Assembly: GCF_003704095.1 (NCBI RefSeq)
Contig: NW_020843829.1
Coordinates: 1,674,001-1,738,000 of the forward strand
DNA: 64,000 bases
Direction: 5' to 3'
DNA from: Pocillopora damicornis
Taxonomy: Eukaryota
Shown piece after piece: positions 10,078-60,900 of this stretch; the stretch's first letter is position 1, and every line of letters begins with the position of its first letter. A program made the position numbers and the translations under genes. The notes below the pieces were generated by a model, which worked only from the letters and a program-made list of their open reading frames with translations, searched no databases and was not told the DNA's origin.

Positions 10078-13000
10078 TCACTCAGTTGTAGCCCGAAATC
10101 GCTTATTTCCTGCACTTTGTGACTCATTTTTAGATTCTTGATTTTGTTGAGCTCTTTGGTAAAGTTTCAATAACTGTGTAGCTTCCCTTAGTTGTATCCT
10201 TCGGTCCAGTTCTTGCTGGCATGCTTCCCTAATATGTTCAGCTTCAATAACACTTTTCCCCAAAACAGTGGCAAGTGAATCGGTTTCGATATTAATCACA
10301 ACTTGGAGTCTTTCATCAGAAAATGAGATAAAAAAGGCAGGATCATTTTTAATTCTTATGAGAAGATCAGCTGGAATGTCATCTGTCATTTCTCCTGCAT
10401 CTGTCCTGTCAAATTCCATGCTTTCATTGGTCTCCAAACTTGCCCCTACACTGCTGATACTATATTCTCTACTTCCTTGACTACAGCTAAAATCTGTGGA
10501 TTTTTAAAAGCAAAGAGATACTCTCAGATTTTGAGGCTAATGCATATTTAGATTGGTGTTACCATTACCTCCTCTCCATCCCTACTTGCAGAATTACCTT
10601 TTCCTCTTACTTCATACTTACTTCAATTACTTCAAACTACATCATTTATAATTTGATAATAGGATGGACTGGAGTGCACTTGGGTCTGCAATGATACCCT
10701 TGATTTCAATATCAGTCAAGTAGGAGTGAGTTTAATTGAAAGCAAATTATTTTAGACCAAAATTGACCAAAAGGAAGTTTACTACCCACTTTATTATATC
10801 CATTTGAAAACTTAATGGCTTTAAAAAGTGCTTAAGTTAATACAGGATTTCTGCCTTAACTATTGCATTGATTCAGTGGCGAAAAAAATGGAAAAAGGTG
10901 TGATTTGTAAATATGTCACATTGCTGAAATCTGAAATCTGATTAGTTGTTTTGTTGTAGAATTCCAATCTCTCTGACAAGGAAAAACACAATTTTAAGGA
11001 AACCTTAATGCAACAGATCACACTGGTGAGAGCTACTCAGAGAACAAGGATCACACTTGGTCTGAAAATGGATTTACTATTATTAACTATACATTGGAAG
11101 CCCTCTTTAATGGCCACTGTGGTAAGCAGACAGCATCTTTCACATTTGCCTCCCTATAGCTGATCCAGACTCCCATCCAAACTCTGCATTTTTACATTCC
11201 TGTGAGTTAACTTTCTACTCTCAAGTAGTGATTCAACAATTTCCTTTGTATCACCATCTCAAAGATATTTTATCAATCAGCATTACATTAACACTTAAGA
11301 GATTGGTTAAGAGGCCTTTAAAGAAATTACTGATTGTGATACACTTTGCTATAAATTGGAAAGCTGAAGAAAAAGCTATTTATTTAAAAAACATCCCCTA
11401 ACTTTATTACAGAGGTATGTTGCAGTTAGACCATTATTATTTCTATTGATTCCAAATATGATTTGTTATTTAATCACCAAGAATCAGCCCTCGTGATTTG
11501 GTGGGAGCTGTCTACAGCATCATTGCAACGTTGGATGGTACAGTAACAGGAATGAAAGATAAACTATGTTGGTACTTTGTTCTGCTGTTGTTTGTTGTTG
11601 TTGTTTTGCATTCTATAAGATATTTTATAGGTGGGCATATGCACCCAGGAGGTTGTTCATAACTAACACTTACAGTATGCACCTAACTGTATGACAACCA
11701 TTCCTTCAATAGTCAACTCAATAAACTGTCTGTTCATTTTCAAGTTTCTGTTACATGAATATTCAAAATTTCTAAGAAAAATGATGTGAAGATGTATCGC
11801 AAAAAGAAAGTGGAATTTGGCAAAAATGTAGTCAATGACCTTTAAAATCTGAAATTGACAATTTCATGAATTGTCAGAGTCACAAAATATAACTACTTTG
11901 TAAAAGTTTTCCTCCTCTTTTTTTCCAAGTTTCTTGGTGCTTTTGAAAGGATTAGACAACAGTTTCTCTGGGGTAAGGCATTTCAATTTTGCTTTAGGAC
12001 CAAACAAGAGAAAGAGTCATAACATCTCTGGAAGGAAAATATGTAATGTGCTAGGCTTAGTCTGGGGAGATGGATAAACAGGCAAGTTAGTGAAAATCAG
12101 CACATTCTTAGAGTATTCCAAAAAAGAATATAGTTGGACATACCGTAAAACATTTCTCACAGTGAGATGTTAATATTTCCTAAGGCTGTCAGCCATCTTT
12201 CCCACAACTGACAAGACTGTCATGAGATGTTTCCAGTAACATCATTTCAGCAATAGAGTCNNNNNNNNNNNNNNNCCCCCCCCCCCCTCTCACCCTTCTC
12301 CCCTGGTTTAGGTTCCATGATGTGACTCTGAGTCCTTAAATATGTCAAAACCAACTCAAGATCATAAGTAGACAGGAGTTTTGAGAAAGATGACTGACAA
12401 CATCTCACTGTGGCAAAAGTGTTTGGCTGTGCAAAAGAAACTGTGTCCAAATGAAATTCTACCACAGTTTTTGAAACATTTCTCTCTCTTTAGTCTGACC
12501 CCTGGTTTTCTCCCTCACATAATTCTTCCCAAAAATTGTGTGCCTGACACAGGCAAAAGTATAAATAAGGTTATACATAAGGGTTAACTATTTCATGAAT
12601 CATGAGTGTTATAATTTTAATATAAAATACGGGCTATTTCCAGACAAAAAAAGGTTTGACAAGACCGTGTCTACCTGTCAGTTACAATGTAGGATCTGTA
12701 TCGGTGTAACTGAGGTAAAATTTCCACACAGCCCCATACTATTTTAAAACAAATCTGTTTTCCCAATGGCAATCTATTGTTTTTGTCATTGTTTTCTCTA
12801 TCCAAAAACTGAATGCATAATGTAGTATGGGGCTGTGCGGAAATTTTACCGTTTTTTTTTTTCTTACTGTACTTATAAAAAAATACACGCAAGGATGATG
12901 GCGATACAGGAGACAGACCCAAACCACACTGACAACAAATGCTTTGATAGACAAGTACAATCATTCAAACAAATTTTAAAACACTCTAGCAAAACCCAGT

Positions 13001-13275
13001 AAAGATATTCCTTACGTACTCTGCAAGCCAGCTGTCCAATCATCCCCGTCACAAACAATCATAAGTTTAGTTTGATCTTCCAGGAAGCTAAAATATTCTT
13101 CATCGTCGATCTCTGTTCCATCACTGTCAAGAAATACTCGGCAGTTCCCTGCTGCTATCCCCAACTTTGACCTTCCCCTTTCCTTGAGTTCGTTTAGGCT
13201 TTCTGCGACAATTCCTTGAGTTTTTGTTCGCTCTGAATTGCAAACTTTAAACGGTTTACGTCGCTTTTCTTCCAT
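10078..13275 (-). CDS. DFFA: DNA fragmentation factor subunit alpha (ICAD/DFF45) orthologue; complement(join(10078..10493,13020..13275)), or alternative junction 13016/10486
   Basis: Exon 1 is a CIDE-N domain (KPFKVCNSERTKTQGIVAESLNELKERG...VFLDSDGTEIDDEEYFSFLEDQTKLMIV). Exon 2 carries an acidic linker with a caspase-like DRTD|A site and a DFF-C-like helix (EACQQELDRRIQLREATQLLKLY), then a C-terminal NLS-like KRFR. There is no CAD nuclease domain, so this is not DFFB. Confidence 0.88.
10655..11085 (+). mobile_element. Diverged copy of the interspersed repeat at 42481-42885 (DFFA intron)
   Basis: Shares collinear blocks with 42481-42885: actggagtgcacttgggtctgcaat, tatatccatttgaaa, aatacaggatt, tctgattagtt, tcacactggtgagagctactcaga, tgaaaatggatttactat. 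Confidence 0.6.
12261..12275. other. Assembly gap (15 N) next to a poly-C run
   Basis: Run of n characters followed by a C homopolymer. Confidence 0.99.
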
Positions 13276-13440
13276 TAGTGCATGGATAGGTTATATTTCA
13301 CTTCAACTTGTGCACCATGTTTCAATTCCACTCCCCAGTCTATTATCAAATTTCAAACTAGCTCCCAGGTTCTTTCGGTATTCAGTCGAATAGAAGAAAC
13401 TGTTCAGACGGGATAGAGGGAAACAAGACATTAAAACCTT

Positions 13441-35064: not shown

Positions 35065-38000
35065 ATGGTACTTTTCAAGACACTTACTCTCTTCCAGTTT
35101 TTGGTGGCAGTGGAATTTTCACTTCTCTCTCTTGTCACATCAAGTCAATGGCTGTAAGTATTAAACCAAGAAATCGCGGTACCTCAATGAAAATCTCTTC
35201 AACATCAGAGTTTGATAGAGGATGGTGTGTTTTGTTCCGCACTGTCTGGTTTCTGTCGTCATTGAGTTCAAAGTATTACTTTAAACCATCTAAATTAATA
35301 AATTTGTGCTTACCAGTTCCTGACGACAGTGAAATGAGTATTTAATTTAACTAGCTCTTTGCAGCTGTTGAAATTGAGAAGTGCAGCAACAAAAATAATT
35401 CCCGATCTGTCATCGTGAACACTGAAATGGAATGGAAAAACTTTAACCGGGGTTTACTGAACGCCAGCATCAAAATCCAAAAATCGCCCGGTTAGACGAC
35501 GGCAATCATCGCGAATGGAATTCTTCTTTCAAATTGTTTTTCCGTTTTTTATTTCGTTTAAGCTGATCCAATATTCAACTCAGTACCAAACTTATGGAAG
35601 ACAATTTTCACGTAAAAAGAATTAATATTGGTCGAGCAGTGTAGAACTAAACAGACGTATAGACTTGATAAATCAACTGAAAACTTGTAAATAATTCCAA
35701 TCATGGACAAATCAATCGCGTCAATGAAAGTTGATTCCATAGGAACCTCTAAACAACGAATTATCAATCTCAAAATTGAATCAGTGGCAGACGCGCCAAA
35801 TTTGTTTTTCAAACTGTCTTTGGTTACAACTGTAGATTAAATAGTGTTCATAAGTGATAACATCGACTCTGTTAACATTTACAGATCACTGGCGCTCAGC
35901 AGCTCTGTTACTAAGTTTAACACGCGTCGAAGCTGTGACGAAGTCGGTACCCACTTTAACAACAGACAGGTACAAGTCTGCAAAAGGAATGTTGACGTCA
36001 TGAACAGTGTCAAATTTGGTGCCACAATTGCTGTCCAGGAATGTCAACATCAGTTTCGCTATCGAAGGTGGAACTGTACCACTCTGCAATTTGAAAAATC
36101 CCCTGTCTTTGGAAATTCTGTAAACGGAGGTAGGCAACATTTCCGCAAATTTTTATTCCATATCTGCGCGTCACTATTCTAACTACTGTAATGGCCTACA
36201 TCAAGAAACTGTCACTGCAGACCGATAACAGAAAGAACACTTAGCACTCCTCAAGTCAAGTAAGAAACTGGACCGTCTAATTTGAATTTCCTCGTAATGA
36301 AGGTGCCTGCAGCATTTAGTAACATGTGATTACGAAAGACAAGGGGAAACAATTTTTAATGAGCTTTATTCCCGCTTATTCTGTTTAGGAACCAGGGAAG
36401 CTGCTTTTGTTCATTCCATTTCGTCAGCGGGGGTAGCTTATGCTGTGACGCATTCCTGCAGCGCGGGAAAACTTGGACGAAGGTGTGGCTGTGACCAGAA
36501 GAACAATGGAAAAATGTCTAAAGAGGGTTGGAAATGGGCAGGGTGTAGTGATGATATCAACTTTGGAATTGAGTTTTCCAAAACCTTTGTGGACGCAAGA
36601 GAACGTGGTCGTAAAGGAGAGGATCCATCTCGTATTTCTATGAACTTACACAACAACAACGCAGGGAGAAAGGTGAGTTGATACTCATTTCAGCGCTTGG
36701 TGGACTAAAAATTTTGAAGTTCAGTAGAGATGTTAGATCATTAAAATCATAAGGATATTCATACGGTCATCTCATGGGTTTCAATTGGCGGATTTAAATC
36801 CATTTTGTTTGTTTCTGCTCCTAACTGTTCGTCAAGATGCCGGCAGCATGAGACGAAATTGCAAGTTTGGCCCTGATCCACTGAATTTGTATTTTATTGA
36901 AAGGTCTAACTGAAAGCTAAATATTTATATTGATGAATAGTATTGGCAAAAGAGAAACAATCGATAGACCTGATAAACTCGTGCGCTACAAATATGTTTA
37001 GTCGATAGTTGAATGATTGACAGAAATTCACTTATGTAGCACCGCTTCTTATGATTTTTTTGGAAACTTAGAAAATGCAAAAAAAAAAAAGTGACATCTA
37101 CACGAAACAGTTTCTTTACCTATTATGGCCCCCTGCGCTATAGCTAGCGTTACAGTAACATTTGCTTAATCCTCCCTAGCGTCTACTGGTGTGGGGAACT
37201 TGTTAAATACCGAGACTTAAAGTGAAGATGACTATGTCGTAGCAAGGACCCTTTGTAGAAAAACATGAAGCAAGCCTAAGTAGCAAGGACCCTTTATCGA
37301 AAAACATGAAGCACACCCAAGTAACATTTCACCCTCTTAATTAATTTTGTGCAAAGTATTTCAAACACAAATTAGGGGACCTGCGCTTCTGCCTTCATTG
37401 TCGAAAGATCCAGGACTCGAAAGGCCGTTTTGTCCAATATTTTTTTTTGAAAGTCGAGTTTTCTTAGGAACATTCTCTACCCATCAGATCTACGAAAAAG
37501 AGTATCTAAGGAGTAAGAGAAAGCAGATCGAGTGAACATGATTTTGGTATTTTGATCACGTGAAAGTAGTAAATCTAACCGACGATTTGCTAATTTATAT
37601 TTCAATCAACAGGCCATCCTAAAGTACATGAAAATTCAATGTAAATGCCACGGTGTGTCAGGATCATGTAAAGTGAAAACCTGCTGGAGGTCACTTCCCA
37701 ATTTTAGACTGGTTGGAGATCATATCAAAGAAAAATTCGACGGAGCCACGGAAGTAGAACTAAAGCAAATTGGATCAAGGAGAGTTCTTCTTCCACGAAA
37801 TCGAAATTTTAAACCTCACACTGCGGTCGACCTTGTTTATATTGACCGTTCACCTGATTTCTGCACGCCAAATCTTAGCACTGGCTCCCTTGGAACCCAA
37901 GGAAGGATGTGCAACCGCACATCTCAAGCTATAGATGGATGTGAGTTGATGTGCTGCAGTCGGGGGTACACCACACACCAAGAAGCCAGGGTGGAGCGTT

Positions 38001-38080
38001 GTGAATGCAAGTTCTATTGGTGCTGTTATGTCAAGTGTCGCGAATGTCAGAGGCGAGTCGAGGTTAGCATCTGCAAGTAA
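35065..38080 (+). CDS. WNT4: Wnt4 ligand; join(35065..35153,35885..36129,36389..36672,37613..38080)
   Basis: Signal peptide [30 protein letters not shown]. Motifs: [55 protein letters not shown], lipidation motif [10 protein letters not shown], Wnt4-typical [10 protein letters not shown] and [12 protein letters not shown], and [11 protein letters not shown]. All introns are GT-AG with consistent phases (2,1,0). Confidence 0.93.
37239..37322. repeat. Tandem duplication, 2 x 41 bp, in Wnt4 intron 3
   Basis: gtagcaaggaccctttgtagaaaaacatgaagcaagcctaa is followed by gtagcaaggaccctttatcgaaaaacatgaagcacacccaa. Confidence 0.85.
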
Positions 38081-40979: not shown

Positions 40980-43900
40980 TCAGGACATGTAACGATTGAT
41001 CCAAGGGATAAACTCTGTGACGCGTACATATACTCCATACTTATTTCGTAATCCGCATCCCAGGCTACTACCCCAGCTCACTACCCCGCCCAGTACCCAC
41101 TTCCCGCTCACTGGGTCCATGGACACAAATCCACCACCAGAGTCTCCATGACAGGAATCTTTTCCACCTTGAACCTGACCAGCGCAGAGCATTTTTGGAG
41201 TCACAATGTATCCTTCATCCTTGAAGGCGGCTTGGCATTTATCGTTGCCAATGGTCGGAATGCAGATCTCTTTGAGTATGTTTGCAAACTGCCCAATGGA
41301 GTCCTGGCTCACTCTATAACCCCAGCCTACCACTCGGCCGAATTTTCCGCGCATAAACAAACTCTTCTGCCTAAAAAGCGAGAAAGAGAAGAAAAGTTGC
41401 TCCCATTGTGGCCCTTCTCTTGACACAACAGCAGGAAATCAAACGGCAAGAATCACTGCTTTGCAGGGAGAGGATCTTTGGAACTTTTTTCGCTGTCGTT
41501 CAAAAAAATGTGAAAAATAACGGCCCACGGCAGCACGGCTCAATCAAGTGGTTAATTTCACAAATATGTTCACCTTTTATAACAGTCGTAGAAATATTGT
41601 TACCCATAAAACTTAAAGAATTGGACAAGTAAATAAGTGTTTGACTTACTCAGGTTTTTCTGGCAGACAGACAGGTCTGGCGTAATCTGATATTTTTATT
41701 TCACGATCCAGTTTCAAAAGCGCTAGGTCAGACTCAAACAGAGTGAAATTAAAGTCCCGGTGATTAATGATCTTTATGACTCTTCTCCTCTGAACGTGGC
41801 TGTCGTTGAATTTGCGGATATCAAGTAGACCAGCAAAAATATCCAGTTGAGAAAGGGGGATAATGTCTGATTGCTTGCTCGTCACGCAGTGAGCAGCTGA
41901 AGATGAAAATGACGTACTAAGTAACATTGGTAAGTGATCTATGAAGAGTTTTTAAATGTTCATATGTTGAATACTCTTAAAAAGGTTGTGTTTGCCTCAT
42001 TTTTTGCCTCCTCTAAACTCTTTAAAACTTCCAAGGAGTAACTTACTTCCCTTAAAACAAGCAATCTCTGCAAGCTCTTGTCCCTGTCAAGAAAACTGAC
42101 TTTTTTTTTATCAGAGTAACTAGTGTTTCCAAAACCGTTGACCATTTTTCTCCTCTTTGTAGCAAAGCTACCGAGAAGGGCCTGTGATTGACTCACCAGT
42201 TAGAACCCATCGTTCGTTCAAAAGACTTCCACCACAGGCCAACCGACCATCCTTCATAAGTAACACATGCCATGGGTAGGCCCCTTTGGATGAGTCCTGG
42301 CCGCCAACGATCCTCTTTCTACAAACATCACGACTGAAATTAAAGTTTTCTATTTCTCCACAACCTGTATTGATAACAGTAGAGAAAAAATTGTTAACAA
42401 ATACCAACGCATCAAAGCAATCACTACCAAGGAAGACAAAATGATAGACGCGCGGATAAAGTTTCAGTAATGGTGGCATTTATAATGGTAATTGAACTGA
42501 GTGGAGTGCAATTTGGGCTGAAATCATAAGTGTGATTTCAAAATTGAACGAGCGCACAGCGCGAGTTCGATTTGAAATCACAAGTTTACATCCATTTTGA
42601 AATCGCCCAAATACAGGACTTGGTCAGTTCAAATATTTTATTCACACAATACTGAGCCGGTTTGAAATTAAATTCATCCATTTTTTGGGAGGAAAAATAA
42701 GAGTTTGGAAACAAAAGTTGCAAAATTTGCCACATGATACTCCATGTCTTTCATCTTCCTGCAATTTGATCGGTTACTTTAAACAAGCCTTGAAGTCTGA
42801 TTGGTGCGATTCGTGAATAAATCGCACCAGGTAGAGCCAATCAGATTACAGGGACCACCAGTGATTTCAAAATGGGTGTAATAAATGAGCTAATTGTGTC
42901 AGCCGAGCGCGTTAGAAGCCGCAATTGGTGCGAGTTGCACCAAGATGTTCATTTCAGTAGGTCACTCCCTTAGACTTTTGAAATCATTTGAGAGAAAAGG
43001 AAACTCGTTTGTGGCAGGAACAGTGGGTTCAATACATGTGGTCTAAGTTTGTAAAAAGAAGCAAAGAAGTAAGTTTCCTATCTTTCATTTGTTCCTTATA
43101 ACTTCTCCCTCTTTTTCTTTGTTATTTAGGTCTTACGAGAATAATTTAGAACGATGATTTGTCTCGCTCCAACTATTCTAATTCACATCACTCACAGATT
43201 AGATCGAATGATTTGCCTGGAATCAAAATAAATTTGTGGCATGGGTTATTGCCACAGAAGTGGTCTGATATCTATCTGTTGTCTTAATATCCATTTCAAA
43301 TTTGTCGAAAATGGCGATAAAATTACTCTTCTTTTTATCTCTGCGTGTTCTCTTAAAAAGACATGCAAGCACATCCTGTCCATTCTATTTTAATTTTTAC
43401 AAAGCTGCTTTTCCAAACGGCCTTTTAGGTTTCATTATGATAGTGGTCCCTTCAATTTCCAATATAAGCTAACGAAGAGAAGGGTCAGGACCCTAATATA
43501 ATATAAAAGAAAGGCGTCAGTAAAAATTTACGTTATAGCCAGGCTAACGTACTTGCAACACACTTGGGTTGTTCGCCAGACCAGGTTCCATCTGCTTGGC
43601 ACTGTCTAGTGCTCTGACCTCGAAGCTCAAAATACTTGTCACAAGAAAATGTTACGGTTTTCTTGTAAGTGAATCCAGTCTGTCCCATTTTACCATGACG
43701 TGGGATTCCAGGATTACCACAGTTTACCGCTTGTGCCGTTAGAGAGATGAATAAACGAATGCAATTGAAAGAAGTAAAAAACCACGGCAATAAATTTTGC
43801 AGTTAAGGTTGACTCGTCACTCAATTCACATTCTGTCGATAGAGATTCCCTAAAGTTAAGATGCCTTGTCAACCACAATCAAAATTGTTCTGAAATATCT

Positions 43901-46805
43901 TTCAACGAAGTGACTTTAAAGCAGCTTATACCGTGCTCTGGTTCGACTCCAGTTCAAGCATCATAACTATAAAGTATGAAGTTTATATCTTCACTTTGTA
44001 ATGCTCGGAGTTCAAAAGGGCCTTGATAACTTTTCCCCCACAAGATCGCATTCACCTAAGGCGTACCTTCTAAGAAGTAAGTCACCTAAGGAGTAACTGT
44101 ACTTACGTTTGCATTCAGGGACATCTCCGTCCCAGGTTCCGCTGCTGAGACACTCCCTGACAGCAGAGCCTGTTAGAAGATAACCTTCATCGCAACCAAA
44201 CTGTACGACGTCCTTAAACGTAAAACTATCCCCCGTCATGTTTCCATGCTGTGGAGCGCGTAAGATTGGGCATTGTAACCCTGTAAAAGCAAAATGCTAA
44301 TAAATAAAATATAATGCAACGATTATACCATAAAATTAATTAAATGGCCACTACAACTTAGACGACTCGGCTAACAATGATACAATGATAACAAACAGAT
44401 CAGTCAGATAAACAGACAACGAGACAACCAATAAAATTCACGAGCAAGGTCAGAGCACTTCATTTGTGGGTTGCAAGGGATTTATTTACAATCGTTTGAT
44501 AAAACGTTACCATGTGTATCATAAATCGCTTTGAATCCTTTGTAGTTTTCAGTACCATCGGACACAAACTCCAGATACATGTAGTTATCAGATGAAGTAA
44601 TGTTCTGCGGAAGAGACTTCCCACAGAAAGGACCATACTTTCTGTTGATGCCTGCTGACACTCTCAAGTAGTCGTAAGGACAAATCACGTCTGGATGATC
44701 CTCCACTTCAAACTAAGCCCAAAATCAAAAACAAATCAACAGTGTTATTATTATATAATGTAGGCAAATATTAACTTTGTGTAACCATGACCAGGAGAAT
44801 AAATGCACTGTGGTTTGTTATCGAAGCGGCACGATAATCAGGGAAGAGTTTAGGGAAATTGTGATATTCCACCGTTCGTTAACGCGACAACCAACCTGGG
44901 ATAATATTTGTGCGAGGTGAAAATCGTATTTTACGACAAAGCACGAAAGACAATAATGGCATAGAGGAAATAGGTAAGAGCATTTACTGACAGGTTTAAA
45001 AATCAAGGCAAAAACAAAAGGAAAATTAGAATTAGTAATCATTGTCTGGTACCAAAAAGGGTCATAGGGCCTCGGACAGAACCTTCCATAAAGTTGCTGC
45101 AAACAACCCTACTTTATCCTTAGTGGGCAAGAACAGTGCCATTAGTTGTTGCAAAAACATTTGCATTAATAAATACGCTTACCTCACTATATTGGTTAAG
45201 ATTTGAATTTAACATATTGAGCCATAAAAAGATAGCATCAGCAGAACTTGGGCAGTGATATGACTTCGAAGAGCACGATTCGAACAGAACCAAAGTAGAT
45301 ATTTAAAGAAATCCTCCATAGTAAATTTACCAGCATGACTTTTCCCATCATAAAATAATTCAGCATGTTCATTGACTAAGAGTATTTCAATTTATTCCAG
45401 AACAGGAAGAAATCACGAACGAAACTTACCTGAGTAAAACTTAAAGTTATCTGGTATCCTTCTTCCACTTCAATGGTCCAGTCACATCTAGAGTTTTTGG
45501 GGTAGTTCTTGGGGTATTCTGGAGTAGCTATTTCACCTCGCCTCGCTTTAAATTGCTGGTTATTGCAAACAACTAAAGAATGCCCGAACATTAAAAATTA
45601 CGAACAAAAGTAAACGGGGCAATAAATTTTAAGCCACATTACGACAGGAAAATTAATCTTGGGAAATGAATGGGTCGCTCTCTTGGTTGAATATTACCTG
45701 AGCAATCAGAAGATTTTAAAAGTTTTCGCGGACAAAACTTCTCTAAAACGAAGAAAAACGAAGGGTTAAGAAAGGAGGATACTTACCATAACAAGACTTC
45801 TTATCCGGTTGAAGTCTGTAGCCTGGTCGACATGAGCAATAATGACCGCCTATGTAATTGTGGCAGTAATGATCACATCCACCGTTATCCCTTTTGCACT
45901 CATCTGCATCTGCAAGGGACAACAAAAAATTAAGGTAACCTCTACTGAGTAGTATAAAAGAAAACACATGCTTGGAGATTTTGCATACAACATCAATGTT
46001 CTCTGTGGCGGTGGGTCTAACATTAAAGGGATGAATAAGAACAGATCTTGCCGTCGAGGAACAGACAGGCATTTAAATTTGTTGTACTTTTGGTCAATTT
46101 TTAGAGATTCTTTTTTGAGCCTATTATGGAAAGAACAGCTATTTTGTTTTCAGTAATTAAGGAAGTTTGGAAGCTGGACTTTAAACATTTAATTTTTGTC
46201 CTTTTTGAACTGAAGAGTAGTGACGGAAATAGGGCAGCTAATGGCTTGAACCAGAATTATTTGATTATTTATATTATGTCCTTTGGATTTCTTTTTTGGT
46301 CAATGAACATCTTATTAACCTATTAGGGTTTTCAGTAGGGGAGTATCTTGCGATCTCAGTCAAAATTCTCCGCTACAGACCTCCTGCTCGGTTAATGTGA
46401 ACCAAGTAATAAAAAAAATGTGGTAAGAAAGAAATATGTACTTACCAACAGCGGAGTAATGTGCTCTGAAACCTTTGTAGACTTCCTCATTGGAGTAATC
46501 CGAGTGAAAGATGAGAGTGACCTCGTTTGTTGGTGATATTAATTGATCGTGGGGAATGCGATGAACTCCCTTTTTAGAGCCACAAAATTTTCCATGAGTA
46601 CTATTTCCGGAACGCATGGAAATCCAATCGTATTCACAATATTTGAAATATTCTACATCAAAAGCTGTGAACCGAATTTTCACCCGATAGCCTGTAGCCA
46701 CAGTTATGTTCCACACACAGTGCAAGTTATTTGGATACGTGTCAGGAAAGTTTGGCGACTGAATAATTCCATGACGGCCATTAAGAGCTCCACCGCAAGA
46801 CGAAT
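40980..46805 (-). CDS. MASP1: Mannan-binding lectin-associated serine protease (MASP/C1r/C1s family); complement(join(40980..41370,41650..41896,42197..42364,43553..43729,44107..44280,44511..44712,45430..45572,45787..45909,46446..46805)); signal-peptide exon not located
   Basis: Domain order is CUB1 ([22 protein letters not shown]...FHSDYSNEE), Ca-EGF ([31 protein letters not shown]), CUB2 ([15 protein letters not shown]), CCP1, CCP2, then a trypsin domain with IVGG, TAAHC, DLALLKL and [10 protein letters not shown]. All splice phases are consistent. Confidence 0.92.
42481..42885. mobile_element. Non-autonomous interspersed element in a MASP intron
   Basis: Hairpin tgtgatttcaaa...tttgaaatcaca (~42531-42581) near one end and inverted tctgattgg...ccaatcaga (~42797-42845) near the other. 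A second diverged copy lies at 10655-11085. Confidence 0.6.
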
Positions 46806-46889
46806 CTGAAGTTAATTAATATATTGATGAGTTGAGAGAAAAAGGAAATGCCTTGCTTTTTGACTAAGGACAGCCAACACCTTTAAGAT

Positions 46890-47926
46890 TAAAGAGGGTA
46901 AGTTTCTTCAGAAAATGTGATAGCTACGTCGGTTGAAAGTATGATAAGATAATTTGGTTTTATCAAGTGAGTTGATCATGTAAATTGGCCACCGTAAAGA
47001 GTTTCAAAGCTGGCGTTTCGAGCGTTAGTCCTTTGTCAGAGCGAATGGAGGAATTGTGGGTTGTGTGTATGTTTTTATGCTACGCTATTGGCAGGAATAT
47101 GGTGACGAGGAAACAAGAATAGGTTAGTTAAATGAAAAGCGCTCGTTGATACCCTGGGGATTAAGAGTGCCGATTAAGAAAAATAAATTTTTGTTCTAGA
47201 GTTTTGCGGCTTTCCGAACTGCGTAGATTCAGGAAAAGGCCGTAAACTGCCATATACTGTTTAGAATGATTAGGGAGATTAAAGCGTCTAGCGACTAGTT
47301 TGAATACGTCCCTGTCATTTCTTTCTACGTCGTGAAGGTGTTCTTGGAATCGGTCACCCAGTCGTCTTCCTCTTTCACCACTGTATAAATTTTTGCAAGA
47401 AGTGCAAGTCATGCAATAGATGACACTGGCGGAGGTGCACGTGAAATGATCAGTGATCTTCACAGATCTCCTGGGTCCCGACATTTCTCCACGTGATGAA
47501 TGAAAGGACAAGTTTTCCACCGTGAGCGAGCACATTTGAAAGTTCCCGGTTGGTCTTAGTTTGAAAATTAACTTCTGACCAAAAAGTTACTGATGTTTTT
47601 GTCACGTTTGAATGTAATTAGTGGAGGTTTCGAAAACATAGTACCAGTCTCTAAATCGTTTTGAAGTAAGTTTTAAAGAAGGATAGATTTAACTGCGTGG
47701 TTGTGAGGGTGAAATGTGAGAGTGAATGGAATGGATGGGTATTTCGTTCTGTGCCGTTTGTAGTGCTGATTGTCGATCAATTTGTTGGGCGCGGTGTTGG
47801 CCTCTTAAACGACAGAAACAAGTAAAAAGGTATAGAATTCTTGACGTGTGACGCTCCAAACGTCAGCTTTAAAACTCTTTACAGTGGCCAGATTACATTA
47901 TCAACTCGGTTGAAAAACCAAATTTT
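46890..47926 (-). mobile_element. 5'-truncated Penelope-like retroelement (RT C-terminus plus GIY-YIG endonuclease remnant) flanked by inverted pLTRs
   Basis: ORF 47161-47535 (FTCTSASVIYCMTCTSCKNLYSGERGRRLGDRFQEH) is a degenerate PLE GIY-YIG domain. Upstream minus-strand frames give AQQIDRQSALQ and IPFTLTFHPHNHAVK. The repeat at 46951-47045 recurs inverted at ~47850-47926. Flanks cacctttaagat (46878) and cacgtttaagat (47927) form a 12-bp TSD with one mismatch. Confidence 0.88.
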
Positions 47927-50357
47927 CACGTTTAAGATGACATTTGTTTAAGGCTTTCCTTGAAAATCAGTATATAGAACATAAAAATCAAGTCGAAAAT
48001 GGTGAAAGTGAAGGAAAAGTGTTTCGCTGTAAACGTTGTAAATTTAAACTTTCTGTTTCAGAGCAAAACACAAGATCAATTTTTTCAAAACGAAGTAATC
48101 TTCAATATTCGCAGGTTTAGGTTCCACATCACATGACGACTACAATACCACTCAATGTTTTCTGTGTGTACTTGAAAATCAAGGATCAAACTAAAATATC
48201 CAATACTGAGCCCAAACTCCGAGTTAGTAAATTTTCAAATCAAATCAGAGGTATTCCAGACCAACCTTTGTACGTGATCCTCAGGTGCAACTTTGTCTAC
48301 AAAACTTTCATGTCTTGAAAGAAACATGAGCCAGCCCTAGTACATTCAAACCTTTCCCCCGAGCACTAGTGGTCGTGAGATTAAGCTTGAGCTATTTCAG
48401 CTTTCAAGCTTAGTCTTCAAGCTCTTAGATAAGTCGTTTAACTCTTTCTTCAAAGTCAATCAAGAGTTTTGATCTTTCGTTAGTCGATAACATTCTTTTA
48501 GACCTAATATAAACTCTGACATAAATATATCGTTTTGTGAGCATGATCCTTCGGAGCTTTTCTACCTTTTAGAACTATATCTCCTCCCTATTATTTATAT
48601 GAAGTCTTCCTTTATTTGTGACATTGTTGCTACATACACTCATCAGACAGCTTAGTGACTTTCGCGTCACCTGCTGATAATGATCGTGATTTTGCGAAGA
48701 GGCAATCCGGAAGTCATAGGTGAAGCGTAAAGAAAATACCTCTGAGAAATAACTGAAGTTTACAGATAGGTTCCACAAGTTTACATAAGAGTACCATTTA
48801 CTAATTCAACGTAAAGATGGGACAGGATCGCCCAAAAAGAATTGCAAACAGAGAAATGTCCATGCGCAATGTCCAGGAAAATGTCAATATCGACAACTGC
48901 TTATTTCAAATTTTTGATCAAATTGCAATGGAAAAGGAACATCTCAAAAACGCCATCGAAATCTCTCCATGGGTGAAATTTGACTCAATGTGATAAATTG
49001 ACCAAGCATAAAAATTTGGTGGTGACATGAATTTGAACCTTGTCGTGACGTGAGCCCAATAAATGAAAATTCCAGTTCGATTTCTATCATTCACCTGAAT
49101 TGATTGACAAATTATCGAGAGAACGCCAGGAAAATATAGATTCCCGCATGTGTCTTCAAGTTTTTAACACAAAGGAGCTGCGCAATTTAGCACCTCAGAG
49201 ATCTTCTTGCCATTAAAAAAACTCATACACACACAAACACTTCAAGTATACAATGTCTTGTTGGGGCACGATTTACGGAAGGCTAATTTTGATCCGTTCA
49301 AAGCCAGTAAGCAGGAAAGCAACGGCTCTGATTGAGAGCTTAACTTTCGTAAGCCGTAGCAGTTGAAAGCTTGAGTACCAAACTAAACAACCGAAACTTT
49401 AATAAAGGAAATACAGTATTAGTTTACTTGTAGAATCGCCTGATTCCTTCGGTTCATCAAAAGAGGACGCGAGATAAGCCAATTACGTTGCAACCGTTGA
49501 AATGTTCCAAGTCGGGATTATACGGATGATTGACGACGTTGCTGGGTTCTAAACGCGCTAAAGAAAAGTTAATTATCAGTCTACTCGTCACTCTAAATTA
49601 CAAGGCTTAATTTTCTTTGTATCACACTGGGTTGAGCTAAAAATAACAACGCATGATAATTGCCATAATAAAATGCCCATGAAAAAAAGTGCATTTTTAT
49701 TGGCAAGGCATGAAAAATATGTGTTATTTGATTCAGTGGCGAGCAACAGATGTTAATTAATCTTTTTTTAAGTTTATTTTATATCGTCAGTTAAATTTGA
49801 ACGATGAACAAATAGAATCATACAGAAAAAATCGATGGATAAACGCATGAATTGTTTTTTCTGCAAACAGGCCATTCGAAATCTGACCTCCTCAACTTTT
49901 TTTTTTGGTCCAAAAGGCCATCTATTCTAAGCCGTAATAATACTTTCAATGTAAACAAAATAAGCACAGGAAAAGTTCCCATCGTGCAGGATATTTTAAC
50001 ATTAAGTTTTGTTGTGTTTCAATTCTTGATCTGTACAAAGTTTATTACGATATGTACCCACATACCGAAAAAAACGTATTTGAAAGGAAGGGTTTTAGTT
50101 TTCCCTTTCGAGCATGTTAAGTTGTACGAAAACATATCACCGCAACAAGCTTAGTATTTCTAACAAAGTACAGACGAGCGCCACATTTGATAACAGCGCT
50201 CTCAAAAGTGAATACTGATAGGACTTCCGGTCAATGGTTAAGTCATCTTAATTATCACCGCCCTTTTTAGTCATAAAATTATCAAGAAAGATTACACGTT
50301 AGAAGATTGCTGAAGACTTAAAAACTTCAACGTTAAGGGGCTGTGCATTGGCAGCGA

Positions 50358-50392
50358 GGTATAAACGCTTCAGGTTCTAAGCTGCGGTCATT
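50358..50392 (+). promoter_or_regulatory. Candidate TATA box plus initiator for the peroxidase gene
   Basis: TATAAA at 50360 with TCATT about 28 bp downstream, within the intergenic interval between the divergent MASP and peroxidase genes. Confidence 0.3.
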
Positions 50393-51363
50393 ATTTTGGC
50401 GCCAAGCTGAGAGGAAGCAGGGAGCCAGCGCTTAACCAACTGAGATGAGATAATACAATGCAGTGCATCTATCTACACACGCTTTCATTTCAGCAAATTA
50501 TATTCTTGCCAGGAAAAACTACCTCGATATCTCGAACACTATTTAAGCACACCTAAATCTAAAATGATTGCCTCTAAAAGGTTTTTTTATTATTTGCGCG
50601 GCATCAATGTCTCCTGTCGAATCGATAGTGACGGATCTGTTTTGATAAAATCATGGATCGATTTCTTTGTAAACAAATGTGTAACAGTGATGGATATTTC
50701 AAAGGTGATTTGATTGGTATCATTCAAAAAATGTTGGTCATCGGACATTTATAGGGATAGACATCAAGTACCTGGTACGTGCGCAAAGCCTAGTTCATGT
50801 CAGATTCGTTAGCGTCCAAACTCCAAGCCATGCCTTGGAGTCTCAAATTTCGAAAAATGTGTAAGAAAAGAAATAAAAGTAACAATTTAAATCGACTTGC
50901 AAAATTCAAACGTAATAAGTAATTGTTATTTGTTGAAAATAGGACTTAACCCAAGCGAAACATGGTACACCAAAATATGTTGATTTCATGACCTCGCTTG
51001 AGAATAAGGAAGATGTTGAACTTCCTTTAAAACTTAAACAAAATGTTTTTTTATGAGTGACCAGTTACCATTAGTTAAAATATTGGATTCTCAACACTAG
51101 CAACAGTACCTGAGAAACGAATGCCAATGACTAGAAGAAGCGGCAAGAGCAGGCAATCCTTTGATCTGCGATAAACATTAGGGATAGCTAGTTACATTCG
51201 ACGTGACCAAATATCTTAATTCATTCTCAGACAAAAACAATGATACATGAAGGATATCTGTTTTTCCGTAGACTCGTTGACGAAAGAAATGACCTACCTA
51301 AAAAGTACCATGGTTATTTACGAAAATTCCTCACTTGGGTTGCGTAAAGAAGGTAGACGCGTG

Positions 51364-53282
51364 ATGCTACAGTTCAACAATTCACTCTTTGGCACGCGCC
51401 CATCGCTACTAAGCCTTTATGTATTGTTAAAAGTGATTGACACCTGTCTTCTTGTTGACAGGAGTGACTGTAAGCGCAAGGTAGAGGATCCGGCATTACT
51501 GAAGTGATCAGGATATGTAAACTGATCGGCCAACTGAGCCGCCTACACGTTGCAGCTCAAGTACTTTGTTGCAAATATTCATCATATATTTTTATATTTT
51601 ATGAAAGGAAGTGGATGTTAAATGAACTTCCCCTCCGAAAGTGTTTCGAGTAGACAAGTAACGCTTTCCCAATAAAACTGATAAAACATTTCAGACTATT
51701 GTCACCAAATCGTATTTTGCTCTACTTTAACAGATATTTTTTTTAGCGTAATCGATGGCTCTTTAACATATCCCATATACTTACATCAAAAGGCTCCCAA
51801 AGCTCAATTTTTGTTGAAGACCTCGTTCTAAAATCCATTTTCATTTGCCAGAATTTGAAATCATACATAAACAACATTATTGTAAGATAAATCGAAGGAT
51901 ACACCGTTCTGTCGTTATTATCATTATGAGCGTATGGGGACAATTCAAGGAGACGCATGATGTGAACATCAGATTAATCCAGAAGGTTGTGCCGCCTCCA
52001 TTGTCTCCAATAAGAGAATTTAATCTGTTGAATACTGCCCAGCCTCCGAGCGATAAACTGCTGAAGGAACTTCCCATCACCATTCATTCTCTTGTCTGGG
52101 TGTTTTTGATGTTTCCTAAGAAACAACGTATCCAGCTGCTCTACAACCGAACGAAAACAGGTTCTATCTGTATGAGGTTGTTTAGATACTTCTAACGAAC
52201 AAGAGATCGACGACATGAGTCTATGGAGAGTGCGTGTTACTGCCGTGAAATTTCAATGCTTTTCGAGATCTTTTTTGCATCATTATTATTGTTGTTTGCT
52301 CTCTTTTCGGTTAGTTTTTATTTGGTCTTTTTATTTTATTTTTGTGCTTTTTATTTTGTTCTTTGCTTTCTTTGTTTGCTGTTTCGCCTGTCAGATTTAT
52401 CATGTAGCAAAAATTCTTGACAGCCAGACAAATCTCAAAGCTGCACAAGTTCTCTGTTCTTTGCAACAGGATAAGCGACTTTTTGTATTTTATAGGCTAA
52501 GAATTGTTGAGACACAATTTTGTGTCAATCAATGTTTAAGGATATAGATGGGATGGAATTAAGGATATTTGTTGACATCGGACCCCTAAAAAGTAGCCCG
52601 AAGACATTGCATGCAAAATTGTCAACGCATCTTTCTCAAAAAAGAGGTCAAGTAAATGAGCACAAGTGAGTTAACTACTCTGAAACAAAAGACTACGACT
52701 CATTGTATTTCTTTCCATACAGGAATCATTTAAAATTTTAGAATAGCGAATTCAGTGTTAAACCGTGGGGAGTCCCACTAGTCGTTTTTAATCTCATTGA
52801 TCGCTTCGAGTGATCTCACTTCCGCTCGAATCATAATAAGTTTCGTGTAAACATTACACTTTGTCTGCTTGCGGTTTTACGCACTTCCCCTTTGTAAGCC
52901 AACAACCATTCACAAAGGACATAACATTGTATGCTCATCTCCCGTGGGGCTTGTGGTAGAATAGTCCACAGAATTCGTGGCAAACTTGTGATTACGTCAA
53001 CTAATAACAGACCAAACACAGAATGAAGAGGTTTCTTGAGGTTGTCATTGTATTGTAAGTACCATTTCTTTTTAGTAACGTAACCTCCAGGGTATTAGAG
53101 TAATCGTATTCACTGATTGAAAGGTAAGTCTGCCCACAATCTAGCCTTCGAAAGATACACGTAAGAATTAGCTTCTTTCCTTGGTGCGCGTCAGTACATG
53201 AAAGCGATTACTAAATCAGTGTCTTTTGCTTCCCATCACAGAACATACTTGTTTAGTGCAGTAGTTACAGAAGATCCCCCAG
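51364..53282 (+). CDS. Candidate N-terminal exons of the peroxidase gene: 51364..51480 and 53195..53282
   Basis: MLQFNNSLFGTRPSLLSLYVLLKVIDTCLLVDRSDCKRK|gtagag (phase 0) could join cag|YMKAITK...EDPP G|gtaagt (phase 1), which matches the phase-1 CUB exon. The signal peptide is weak and there is no homology support. Confidence 0.35.
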
Positions 53283-57900: not shown

Positions 57901-60900
57901 CAACTGGGGTGAAGGAGTCGAATTTCGAAAATGACTAATAAAGTACTATTTGGCTTGAAAGTACAAACCTCGGTTATTTGTATCATAGCGAGATGTAGTC
58001 GAGGTACCACCAAACAGACACATGACCTATTGCAATGTCTATCTAGTGGAACTTTCTCGTAGTGTATTGAGGTGACTTGACTTCTGCGGCACTTACTTCG
58101 GCGACGCAAACACTCAGCGGTAAATTGATTCTTTAGTTCCGGACTGAGGAGAATTAGAAGTTCTAAGTGCAGTGTAAGTCGAATTGACTCACTTTTCACT
58201 TTTTCGAAAAGACAAGTGTATTAAGTAATATTTCCAAAGCGGCATCCGCTTGGAGGAGCTCCGTAAAAGAGTAGGCAAAATACCTGACCAGAAATAAAAG
58301 TTCAAGTATGTGCATAAATTTCTGATAGATCTTGATACTATTTGATATCTGAGTCAAACTGATCAATGTGGTAATTGTTTCTTTCCATTAGACATAGACG
58401 AGTGCTCGGAATTTGCGAAAGGAGGCTGTCATCATGACTGTTTGAACACCCCAGGAAGCTTCAGATGTACCTGCAGATTGGGATACCATCTTTCACCAGA
58501 TAGAAAAAGATGCGTTGGTGAGCGGTGCATTATATTAGGCAGCTTACACTCAAGTCACACTTGTGTACGTTGTGGATGACTACACCTGAGCATACAGCGC
58601 TTTTCAATAGAAGAAGCTCGAAAATAAATAAGGTCACGATCAAATGAATATCGGATAAAATTACTCGAAATGTCACAGGCAGACAGTCAGAGGGTAAGCA
58701 AACACCTAAAAAAGAAAGATGACCGCTGCCCTAGATTTGGAAACGTTTCGAGAATACGCCGTTCGTTGGGACAAACTGCAGGGTTTTGGGTTGAGCTCAT
58801 GTTCGTATGTGTCTGAGTGGACGGACGGATGTTCACGAATAGAAAGATTAGCTATACGAGAACAATTTTTAATTTCAAGGAGCCTAGGGTGCCGATTTGA
58901 AAGGTTATTGATGAATGCGCTCTCTTGTGGTAAAGAGTTGTCCGTCTCATGAACGTTCTCTTCGGAACTTTTGCGCCAAAAGCAGGGCAACAGAAAAGCT
59001 ACCCACGATTACGATGAGCAAGAAGAGAGTAGAAATGAAAGAGCTAAGAATATACTGGAGAGGCAGCATTTCTACCTCAAAATTTTCCTGTTTATCTCTA
59101 AGAAATAAACTTTCTTTATGCTGGTATCTAATTTAAGAGCATGTATGCTTTCAAATGCAGACGTTCTTCGGACAAAAGTGTTATTTAGTTTGGTTGCAAT
59201 TTTCTAAACGAGTGGCCAGAAAATGGCAGAAAAGATTCCTAAATGTGTTTGTAGGAAGAACTTTAATAGTCGATTGATAAATTTAAACTGGTCGGCTTGA
59301 TCATGTTTCCCTTGCGGTACACATAAGCCCAGTTTTGGACGTTTGCAGATTTATTTCTCTTTTTTCAGAGGACATTGTGATTTCCTTCTCAAAGAGGCGT
59401 TACAACGCATCAGTAGAAGCAACAGCCCCACCCGGTACATCCATTATTACAGTGCATGCCAACACTGGAAACTCCAAACGATCGCTTCGTTACTACATCA
59501 TCTCTGTGAACGGCAAACGCGTCAGAGCCAAAACCCGCACACGGTTTGACATGGATCCAGAGATCGGTAATGTTGAAATCCTATTTGACTTCCTTGCTCA
59601 GCCGATGACATTTGCATACCATGATAATCGCACAAACGTTATGAAGGGTCGAGGGCCTAAGCTCCAATTCTAGTCATTTAGTTTTACCTTTTGTTTTGCC
59701 ATCGGAACTTTTTGTTTCTAGATTCCTTTTACTTTAATCCCACAGGTACTATTTCCATTCGCCGTAAACTCAAGATAAACGCCGTTTATCGCCTCAGAGT
59801 TAAGGCACGTTATAGAAACGTATCGTCCAGTTATGCCATGGTCATAGTCAGAGCAACTTCTCCCCTAAAGAAACCCCGCCTTAGCGCTGACGAGGGGTTG
59901 AAATTCCCCAGTCCAATATATTCAGTCATTATTCCTTACACCATGATCGTTGGACAGACTATATTGCACCTAAGAGCTGAGAAAAGCGAGGGCCTAACAA
60001 ATTCTTCCATACGGTACAGAGTTCAGTCTGTCGATCCGTTCAATCGTAGCCCTTTCTTCAGTCTTAACCCCATCAAAGGTTCCCTCAAGATCGACAGGGA
60101 TCTGACAGACCTCATATCTGGTGAGAAACCAGCCAACTTTGTGCTTCAGGTCATTGCCAGGGCTCAAGAGAATCCAAACGTATTTGCGTCTACGCAGGTG
60201 TCAATTGTTATAGTTCCAGAGTATGCTGGTAATAACTATGTCAAGTCTTCTATGGAGGCTGTTAATAATAGGTCTTTTATCGTGCTGAGCTCTGACCGTT
60301 TGCGATCTCACAAGAACGCCTCCTTTTACAACAAAAAGAAATCTTCGAGAGGTCGAACAGAATTCTCTCTACATCGTCTGTTTCGGCGACCATCCCTTGA
60401 AGCTCAAAGAATTTCCAACGCAGACTTAAAGTTCAACAAAATAATCAGGGAAATTAAGCGTGAAGTGGCAGATGACCTGATTGGTGAGTTTCTTTTTACT
60501 TTTATTATACAGTCAAATCCCAATAATTCAAACCGCTTTCAAGGGAAATCAATAAAGGTTCAGTCGAGTTATCAGGAGTTGGTATCAAAAGACCGGAAAT
60601 AAGGAAAAAACGCTGATTAATTGATGAAACACTAAATTACTGTAGAAATCACAACGTAACGTAAATGTTTGGACTGCTCTTCATTGTTTGTTATCATGAT
60701 TAAGAGAATAACCTAAAGGGAAACGAAAATTGGTCCAAACACCTTTTTGAGAGACGAATCGAGACGAGATGCCGAAAACTCCCTCAAAGACTGATGTGTC
60801 CTTAGTGTGTAACGGATAATACGTGGCTGAACGTGGATGCTAATTACATCCTTGAATGCTCTTCTTGAGTGTGATAAGACTATAGGTCTTTCTCTTAGTT

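What the first reader, a model, noticed from the sequence alone, without database searches (positions are those of the whole stretch)
45787..58517. Head-to-head MASP and peroxidase genes both begin with a CUB-EGF module in identical exon format
Seen: the two divergent genes start with a single-exon CUB (phase 1-1) followed by a single-exon Ca-EGF (phase 1-1). The EGFs are similar ([40 protein letters not shown] vs DIDECSEFAKGGCHHDCLNTPGSFRCTCRLGYHLSPDRKRC). Known: in MASPs, C1r/C1s and MAp19, CUB1-EGF is the Ca2+-dependent dimerisation module that docks on recognition molecules. Inference: a co-regulated immune pair in which an oxidant-generating peroxidase dimerises through CUB-EGF, possibly with MASP, coupling complement initiation to halide oxidation or cross-linking. 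The module could have arisen by local inverted duplication. Caveat: phase-1 CUB/EGF exons are common, and this EGF also resembles tolloid/BMP1.
Basis: partly seen in the sequence, partly recalled or inferred. Interest (0 to 1): 0.7.

Follow-up and report, generated by a model that had tools for sequence, protein, structure and literature searches.

The report
Cnidarian cadherin-armed peroxidase beside MASP
A coral complement protease gene (MASP) sits head to head with the gene for a cnidarian-wide haem peroxidase built with an unusual CUB-EGF-cadherin arm; the shared start is likely an old duplication relic rather than a docking device, and the enzyme likely works alone, tethered to matrix or mucus.

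Summary
Both genes are spliced as modelled, their start codons lie 1,711 bp apart, and both have a phase 1-1 CUB exon followed by a phase 1-1 EGF exon. The minus-strand gene is an ordinary cnidarian MASP (685 aa). The plus-strand gene (1,400 aa, ending beyond the window) is signal-CUB-EGF-cadherin-cadherin-haem peroxidase-WxxW-CBM96-like. That architecture recurs as one clade in corals, an anemone, jellyfish and a hydroid, and my searches found no description of it.

The functional reading is not supported. The peroxidase CUB lacks MASP's calcium ligands, its EGF lacks the MASP motif, and the two modules are not each other's nearest relatives. The peroxidase CUB's closest kin is a third neighbour 7 kb downstream (CUB-EGF3-cadherin2, no enzyme). 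Phase 1-1 CUB exons are the norm (76 of 93). However, CUB followed by EGF is rare (6 genes in a sample of 162 CUB ends) and three of the six lie within 41 kb, so an ancient local duplication is plausible. Trees neither show nor reject it. Synteny and co-expression remain untested. The main interest is the new peroxidase architecture.

The parts
51298..51311 (-). MASP coding exon 1 (ATG at 51311; phase 0-2)
   Evidence: N-terminus matches the Stylophora orthologue; RNA joint 51165/51298 in 3 of 4 runs
51110..51165 (-). MASP exon 2, signal peptide core (phase 2-1)
   Evidence: RNA joint 46805/51110 in 4 of 4 runs
46446..46805 (-). MASP CUB1, single exon, phase 1-1, with all five calcium ligands of human MASP-1 CUB1
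   Evidence: Pfam CUB 2e-26; 89.7 bits to human MASP-1/3 CUB1 vs 48.5 for the best cubilin domain; ligand list from PMC5300068
45787..45909 (-). MASP calcium-type EGF, phase 1-1, with the MASP signature [11 protein letters not shown]
   Evidence: RNA joints
44511..45572 (-). MASP CUB2, two exons (45430-45572 and 44511-44712)
   Evidence: RNA joints
43553..44280 (-). MASP CCP1 (44107-44280) and CCP2 (43553-43729)
   Evidence: Pfam Sushi
40980..42364 (-). MASP serine protease domain, three exons (42197-42364, 41650-41896, 40980-41370): R-IVGG activation site, His/Asp/Ser triad, Ser codon TCT
   Evidence: Pfam Trypsin
51312..53022 (.). 1,711-bp spacer between the two start codons; about 1.4 kb remains between the furthest RNA contig ends
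   Evidence: tables 3 and 8 (contigs cannot show transcription starts)
53023..53282 (+). Peroxidase signal-peptide exons 53023-53054 (phase 0-2) and 53242-53282 (phase 2-1)
   Evidence: RNA joints in 4 of 4 runs; same phase-2 intron seen in another coral's transcript L134
54973..55350 (+). Peroxidase CUB, single exon, phase 1-1, without the acidic calcium triad (T, E, R at the three positions)
   Evidence: Pfam CUB 7.9e-23
58392..58517 (+). Peroxidase calcium-type EGF, phase 1-1, generic fibrillin/LRP-like
   Evidence: Pfam EGF_CA 1e-9; best PDB hits LRP4, LRP2, fibrillin, with MASPs near the bottom
59369..60483 (+). Two basic, degenerate cadherin-like domains without calcium motifs, then a peroxidasin-type helical pro-region (exons 59369-59566 and 59746-60483)
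   Evidence: Pfam Cadherin 7e-8; no DxNDN, LDRE or AxDxD in 5 of 5 orthologues; pro-region 27% over 158 aa to the genome's peroxidasin
61247..64000 (+). Animal haem peroxidase domain (exons 61247-61709, 62069-62289, 63091 onward). The gene continues to G000:C464:1744186 with a WxxW exon and two CBM96-like exons
   Evidence: Pfam An_peroxidase; catalytic motifs

Best explanation
Two spliced coral genes lie head to head, an ordinary MASP and a haem peroxidase with a CUB-EGF-cadherin-cadherin arm, and the peroxidase likely acts on its own as a secreted enzyme tethered to matrix or mucus rather than as a MASP partner. Shown: gene models, domain order, intact catalytic motifs, the same architecture across Anthozoa and Medusozoa, loss of MASP's calcium ligands in the peroxidase CUB, and a third neighbour that is the enzyme-less paralogue of the arm. 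Inferred: the lactoperoxidase-like core uses H2O2 to oxidise bromide, iodide or thiocyanate. The strongly basic arm and the C-terminal WxxW (mucin CysD-type) and CBM96-like domains would hold it on polyanionic glycans, so that oxidants form locally for antimicrobial defence or cross-linking. Inferred with about even odds: the three CUB-EGF heads descend from one 5' gene segment duplicated locally before cnidarian classes split, once with inversion; the peroxidase copy later lost the docking residues, and the head-to-head layout is a relic.
For: Architecture found in Montipora (2 species), Nematostella, Rhopilema, Sanderia and Hydractinia and in three full-length metagenome-collection contigs. 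The six peroxidase domains tested form one clade (SH-aLRT 99) with species-tree shape, apart from the genome's Ig-type peroxidasin. GQFxDHD, GDxRxNEQ, RFGHS, NxQRGRDHG and the calcium loop are present in 5 of 5 orthologues and in the window. The best PDB match is lactoperoxidase, 1e-110, with the same E-Q pair after the distal Arg. The arm is basic in 6 of 6 (K+R 66-95 vs D+E 29-49). WxxW 8e-13; CBM96-type cluster at 0.96, mostly Cnidaria. Calcium triad: MASP E/D/D, peroxidases 0 of 6. Database isoforms lacking the CUB (Montipora X2) or CUB-EGF (Nematostella X2) exist. Gene 3 is spliced; its CUB joins the peroxidase CUBs (98/97; 296 of 300 bootstrap trees; 93/97; 95/96) and its cadherin pair scores 54.9 bits on the arm profile vs 29.8 for the best domain of a true cadherin. 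For local origin: 3 of 6 CUB-to-EGF genes within 41 kb, and shared 0-2/2-1 signal exons.
Against: No activity, localisation or substrate data exist; the tether role rests on domain names and charge. CBM96 Pfam scores are below cut-off. Against dismissing MASP kinship: MASP CUB1 is 8th of 125 for the peroxidase CUB and 4th for both jellyfish orthologues; human MASP-1/3 CUB1 is a good single-domain PDB match (46 bits); the CUB+EGF tree put MASP beside peroxidase plus gene 3 at 83/65. Against local origin: 0 of 300 bootstrap trees of the 121-row CUB set join MASP to that clade; the 83/65 fork collapses when four rows are dropped and MASP-with-tolloid is not rejected (p-AU 0.32); the phase-2 introns sit at different places in the three signal peptides. 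The peroxidase-plus-gene-3 clade was not starred in the 39-row tree.
Confidence: 0.55

Rival explanations
1. One reading: a co-regulated immune pair. The peroxidase heterodimerises with MASP through CUB-EGF, so recognition complexes deposit oxidants where complement starts.
For: Start codons 1,711 bp apart; both transcripts are present in the same 4 bulk RNA runs (runs were chosen for holding the peroxidase and say nothing on cell type); both EGFs keep the calcium consensus; the modules may share an origin. Aiptasia MASP responds to bacterial challenge (PMC4840205, passages).
Against: The peroxidase CUB lacks Glu49, Asp102, Ser104 and Asn105 equivalents, with Glu for Asp57. Its EGF lacks N-[YFH]-[ILV]-GG, seen in coral MASP, human MASP-1/3 and C1r. 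The CUB loop insertion lies on a different side of the fourth Cys than in MASP. The spacer exceeds the usual 1-kb bidirectional-promoter limit (limit recalled). In Nematostella tables neither MASP-named gene (NV2.3735, NV2.14251) has an immediate neighbour named as a peroxidase.
Confidence: 0.08
2. The peroxidase uses its CUB-EGF only to self-associate, as an antiparallel homodimer or with the enzyme-less gene 3 protein, which would act as a decoy, adaptor or polymer partner.
For: CUB-EGF pairs dimerise antiparallel in MASPs (PMC5300068, passages). The peroxidase family conserves its own CUB surface features (basic insert) across classes. Gene 3 has the same arm and lies 7 kb away.
Against: The MASP EGF motif is absent; jellyfish orthologues have two EGFs and gene 3 has three, so the geometry varies; isoforms drop the CUB.
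Confidence: 0.17
3. The adjacency is chance. MASP and the peroxidase/gene 3 arm each acquired common phase-1 CUB and EGF exons independently and became neighbours by rearrangement; the enzyme is a structural cross-linker unrelated to immunity.
For: Phase 1-1 CUB exons are 76 of 93; the modules are only 32-37% identical in CUB, the family background; MASP is not nearest; 0 of 300 bootstrap trees. The core and pro-region resemble peroxidasin, a matrix cross-linker.
Against: CUB-to-EGF genes are few, so a neighbour within 10 kb is unlikely by position alone (my rough estimate about 1 in 1,000 for five independent loci in 234 Mb, before allowing for undersampling and for the many patterns a scan could notice); shared signal-exon phases; joint clade not rejected.
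Confidence: 0.2

Closest known systems
Cnidarian MASP (Stylophora XP_022800644.1; Aiptasia Ap_MASP; human MASP-1/3)
   Same: CUB-EGF-CUB-CCP-CCP-protease order, 92% identity to the Stylophora protein, CUB1 calcium ligands, EGF signature. Anthozoans have one MASP (PMC4840205, passages).
   Different: Nothing of substance; the coral CUB1 keeps both disulfides. Already known.
Peroxidasin (LRR-Ig-peroxidase-vWC; architecture and collagen IV role from general knowledge and listings)
   Same: Secreted multidomain haem peroxidase, homologous helical pro-region, about 41% identity in the core.
   Different: No LRR, Ig or vWC; CUB-EGF-cadherin x2 in front and WxxW plus CBM96-like behind; a separate clade. 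The genome's own Ig-type peroxidasin lies on C3313. RefSeq's names 'peroxidasin' and 'PXDNL' for the orthologues are automatic.
Lactoperoxidase / myeloperoxidase (peroxidase-cyclooxygenase superfamily)
   Same: Best structural relatives by sequence (1e-110); distal Gln/His/Arg, two acidic haem-ester residues, proximal His/Asn.
   Different: Extra 450-residue arm and 300-residue tail; Gln, as in lactoperoxidase, where myeloperoxidase has its sulfonium Met (role recalled), so chloride oxidation is unlikely.
C1r/C1s/MASP/MAp19 CUB1-EGF interaction module
   Same: A CUB directly followed by a calcium-type EGF at the N-terminus of a secreted protein.
   Different: The peroxidase version lacks the CUB calcium ligands and the EGF signature and has no CUB2.

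Membership tests
MASP (minus-strand gene) | Domain order CUB1-EGF-CUB2-CCP1-CCP2-serine protease | tested here: met
MASP (minus-strand gene) | Catalytic triad, trypsin-type S1 Asp, Arg-Ile activation site | tested here: met
   [28 protein letters not shown]
MASP (minus-strand gene) | CUB1 calcium ligands Glu49, Asp57, Asp102, Ser104, Asn105 (MASP-1 numbering) | tested here: met
   5 of 5 in the alignment to human MASP-1/3; list from PMC5300068
MASP (minus-strand gene) | Dimerises, binds a collagenous recognition molecule, activates C3 or factor B | not testable with these tools
   needs biochemistry
Peroxidase-cyclooxygenase haem peroxidase (plus-strand gene) | Distal Gln, His, Arg; haem-ester Asp and Glu; proximal His and Asn; calcium loop | tested here: met
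   5 of 5 orthologues and the window; residue roles recalled
Peroxidase-cyclooxygenase haem peroxidase (plus-strand gene) | Haem binding and H2O2-dependent halide or phenol oxidation | not testable with these tools
   needs enzyme assay
Peroxidasin (plus-strand gene) | N-terminal LRR and Ig domains, C-terminal vWC | tested here: not met
   Pfam shows CUB, EGF, cadherin, WxxW instead
Peroxidasin (plus-strand gene) | Orthology to the Ig-type peroxidasin | tested here: not met
   separate starred clade in a 42-row quick tree that held only one exon of the genome's peroxidasin and no vertebrate peroxidasin
MASP/C1r/C1s-type CUB1-EGF docking module (peroxidase head) | Acidic calcium triad in the CUB | tested here: not met
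   0 of 6 orthologues; 38 of 126 other genome CUBs have it
MASP/C1r/C1s-type CUB1-EGF docking module (peroxidase head) | EGF signature N-[YFH]-[ILV]-GG | tested here: not met
   NT.GS[FY] in all six; the motif is in coral MASP, MASP-1/3 and C1r and in 0 of 33 other EGFs. Its role in the dimer contact is recalled
MASP/C1r/C1s-type CUB1-EGF docking module (peroxidase head) | Common descent with MASP CUB1-EGF | tested here: inconclusive
   83/65, collapses, 0 of 300, p-AU 0.50
MASP/C1r/C1s-type CUB1-EGF docking module (peroxidase head) | Calcium-dependent antiparallel dimer | not testable with these tools
   needs SEC-MALS or pull-down
Cadherin adhesion receptor (arm) | Calcium-linker motifs (DxNDN, LDRE, DxD) and a membrane anchor | tested here: not met
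   none in 5 orthologues or gene 3, many in a control cadherin; the fold itself is cadherin-like
Bidirectional promoter pair | Transcription starts under about 1 kb apart and coupled expression | tested here: inconclusive
   ATG-ATG 1,711 bp; contig ends about 1.4 kb apart; contigs cannot show starts or levels

The most novel reading that the evidence does not exclude
An ancestral cnidarian duplicated the 5' end of MASP (split signal peptide, CUB1, EGF) in inverted orientation, fused it to cadherin repeats, and duplicated it again; one copy captured a peroxidasin-type enzyme. The three genes have stayed clustered for over 500 million years as one secreted defence unit, in which the peroxidase and its enzyme-less paralogue assemble through CUB-EGF with each other or with MASP and place oxidant production where primitive complement is triggered.
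Probability: 0.08. Interest if true: 0.8.

Novelty: new variant of a known kind. Interest (0 to 1): 0.42.

Why it matters
Cnidarian peroxidase activity is widely measured in coral immunity and matrix studies, but the enzymes are usually filed as 'peroxidasin-like'. This is a distinct family conserved from corals to jellyfish and hydroids, with an architecture I found nowhere in print, so it is a specific candidate for mucus or mesoglea oxidant chemistry that can be tested in Nematostella or Hydractinia. The cluster is also a possible fossil of exon-module duplication involving MASP. Recognition partners of cnidarian MASP are an open question (general knowledge); a physical link to the peroxidase would be striking, but the sequence evidence is against it.

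Tried and rejected
Complex prediction of MASP CUB1-EGF (Stylophora) with peroxidase CUB-EGF (Montipora) plus calcium: no verdict, score 0.00, alignments not used, controls not folded; it is not evidence either way. AlphaFold model of the Nematostella isoform: mean pLDDT 37.8 from 8 sequences; used only for a weak cadherin-fold hint. The AU rejections of MASP+tolloid and peroxidase+tolloid are artefacts of leaving nested rows outside the forced group; repeated without four rows (three P0260 modules and L068) they vanish. The AU test on the 121-row tree did not finish; a 39-row subset was used. Recent inverted duplication: no exon-length inverted repeat among 23 pairs; the longest is a dispersed repeat inside a MASP intron. 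Synteny: no MASP CUB1 relative in metagenome contigs (0 of 138 stretches); none of 80 peroxidase loci holds MASP, but the one genomic contig with the CUB exon has only 3.2 kb of intron upstream. Nematostella gene NV2.3736 (next to the gene labelled NvMASP; called Cubilin-like-2, LTBP4-like-1) could not be identified. An NF-kB-like site at 52767 is at chance level (3 found, 2.9 expected). The sigma-70 scan is irrelevant to an animal. The representative search with MASP CUB1 was swamped by multi-CUB proteins and gave one MASP. The first phase count had a conversion error, corrected. Five look-ups in earlier scan findings returned nothing.

Full report
Setting. The window is G000:C464:1674001-1738000. 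Homologues make it a stony coral. Gene order: ammonium transporter, DFFA-like, Wnt (+), MASP (-), peroxidase (+); beyond the window follow a third CUB-EGF gene (+) and DFFB (-).

Observation. Both models read through without stops: MASP 685 aa in 11 exons, peroxidase 1,400 aa in 12 exons. Contigs from four RNA runs (at most four studies; one only guessed to be RNA) join the exons in 44,001-64,000 at the modelled sites; the joint 60483/61247 was not among the rows shown. Each gene has two short signal-peptide exons in front (phases 0-2 and 2-1). The start codons are at 51311 and 53023.

The MASP is ordinary. It is 92% identical to Stylophora MASP, has the canonical six domains and an intact protease. 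Its CUB1 matches human MASP-1/3 CUB1 far better than any cubilin domain (89.7 vs 48.5 bits) and keeps all five calcium ligands listed for MASP-1 in PMC5300068 (three passages seen). No second close CUB1 was found in the genome (best other hits 33-42% identity over near-full length). Anthozoan MASP is known (PMC4840205, passages seen).

The peroxidase is the unusual gene. After CUB and EGF come two cadherin-like domains, a helical pro-region, the haem peroxidase domain, a WxxW (mucin CysD-type) domain and a CBM96-like domain. The same order occurs in Montipora capricornis and M. foliosa, Nematostella, Rhopilema, Sanderia and Hydractinia (cadherin is below the Pfam threshold in Sanderia and not hit in Hydractinia, though the region aligns), and in three full-length contigs among 80 metagenome loci. 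Of the other 114 proteins listed, none shows a CUB or cadherin domain. The six peroxidase domains tested form one clade with anthozoan and medusozoan halves, distinct from the genome's peroxidasin, which has Ig-like exons recognisable by eye. Stretches around seven other peroxidase loci of the genome showed no match to the arm. All catalytic motifs are intact and the nearest solved structure is lactoperoxidase. The pro-region is homologous to that of peroxidasin. The cadherin-like domains lack calcium motifs and the arm is strongly basic in all six.

Is the peroxidase head a MASP-type module? By diagnostic residues, no. The CUB has T/E/R where MASP has E/D/D, and none of six orthologues has the triad. 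The EGF has NT.GS[FY], not NYIGG, and matches LRP and fibrillin EGFs best. By rank: peroxidase CUB finds MASP CUB1 15th of 90, MASP CUB1 finds the peroxidase CUB 68th of 149, and the EGF finds MASP 52nd of 119. In a BLAST among sampled CUBs the ranks were 8 of 125 and 45 of 126, and 4th for the two jellyfish orthologues, which is a mild lean towards MASP. Database isoforms lacking the CUB or CUB-EGF exist.

A third gene changes the picture. G000:C464:1751423-1760191 encodes a 550-aa protein, signal-CUB-EGF-EGF-EGF-cadherin-cadherin, with no enzyme, spliced in RNA contigs. Its CUB groups with the peroxidase CUBs in three of four trees with strong support (not starred), and its cadherin pair fits the arm profile. 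It, not MASP, is the clear local duplicate.

Was MASP part of that duplication? For: I fetched 100 stretches built around hits (one further stretch not fetched). Of 162 CUB 3' ends, 8 matched an EGF pattern next; one is an LDL-receptor repeat and was dropped, leaving 7 junctions in 6 genes, three of them here within 41 kb. The sample is incomplete, and 41 of 168 ends had under 3 kb of downstream sequence. All three genes split the signal peptide with a phase-2 intron, though at different points. A joint clade is not rejected and appeared weakly in one tree. Against: 0 of 300 bootstrap trees, collapse on resampling rows, background-level identity, and no DNA trace. The 1-1 exon format itself is uninformative (76 of 93). 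I put an ancient local origin at about 50%. It must predate the anthozoan-medusozoan split.

Co-regulation and synteny. The spacer is 1.7 kb between ATGs and about 1.4 kb between contig ends; contigs cannot give starts or levels. In Nematostella supplements (table rows only: PMC12549020; PMC10946136) two genes carry MASP names. NV2.14251 is flanked by an unnamed gene and CA050-like-1. NV2.3735 is flanked by an unnamed gene and NV2.3736, a 'Cubilin-like-2 / LTBP4-like-1' gene whose second isoform gave 22 peptides in the mesoglea proteome. None of seven PXDN-like-named genes is near either. NV2.3736 could be the gene 3 orthologue or hide the peroxidase as an isoform; I could not resolve this. 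PMC13319465 supplements had no hit. So direct adjacency is unproven outside this genome.

Mechanism. Shown: structure, expression, conservation, loss of docking residues. Inferred: secretion; H2O2-driven oxidation of bromide, iodide or thiocyanate as in lactoperoxidase (roles recalled); tethering to polyanionic mucus or mesoglea by the basic arm and the WxxW and CBM96-like tail; antimicrobial or cross-linking output. MASP likely acts separately in the cnidarian proto-complement. Confidence 0.55; MASP heterodimer 0.08.

Novelty. Six literature searches (listings only) showed no paper describing this architecture or the pair. The library lacks most subscription journals, and unread papers and supplements (for example PMC4420034, PMC7853314) may mention it. 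RefSeq labels the orthologues uncharacterised, lactoperoxidase-like, peroxidasin or PXDNL. Verdict: a new variant of a known enzyme kind beside a known MASP; interest 0.42.

Noticed in passing
G000:C464:1751423-1760191 (+), locus L132: Spliced gene for a 550-aa basic secreted-type protein, CUB-EGF x3-cadherin x2, the enzyme-less paralogue of the peroxidase arm; orthologues not searched.
   Followed up: partly
window 10081-13290 (-) and L014:1460-3373 (-): DFFA/ICAD-like (CIDE-N, DFF-C) and DFFB/CAD (CIDE-N, DFF40) genes, inhibitor and nuclease of one complex, lie about 85 kb apart and bracket the Wnt-MASP-peroxidase cluster. In Nematostella tables they are NV2.13242 and NV2.14840, not neighbours.
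   Followed up: partly
G000:C464:800000-924000: Tandem array of several further haem peroxidase genes on the same contig, about 0.8 Mb from this locus; no CUB or cadherin match in the stretches checked.
   Followed up: partly
window 52870-52960: The peroxidase 5' UTR shares a recognisable non-coding stretch with the 5' UTR of another coral's transcript (L133), seen by eye; not aligned or scored.
   Followed up: no
window 35841-38077 (+): Wnt gene, tail to tail with MASP (Pfam wnt); looks Wnt4-like from recalled motifs, untested.
   Followed up: no
window 46951-47925: Dispersed repeat inside the long MASP intron, with 75-nt inverted arms and a decayed reading frame; very high contig depth in RNA runs.
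   Followed up: no
window 62288/63091: RNA contigs of all four runs have A where the window has T at the last base of peroxidase exon 8; probably an allele or assembly difference, frame unaffected.
   Followed up: no
P0019 (Clytia): A two-domain Clytia peroxidase without the arm is sister to the cadherin-armed clade (SH-aLRT 99), hinting at loss or replacement of the arm in that lineage.
   Followed up: no
L015:5374-5841 (-): Exon with a weak TGF-beta propeptide match (E 0.004); may be another CBM96-like or TGF-beta gene.
   Followed up: no
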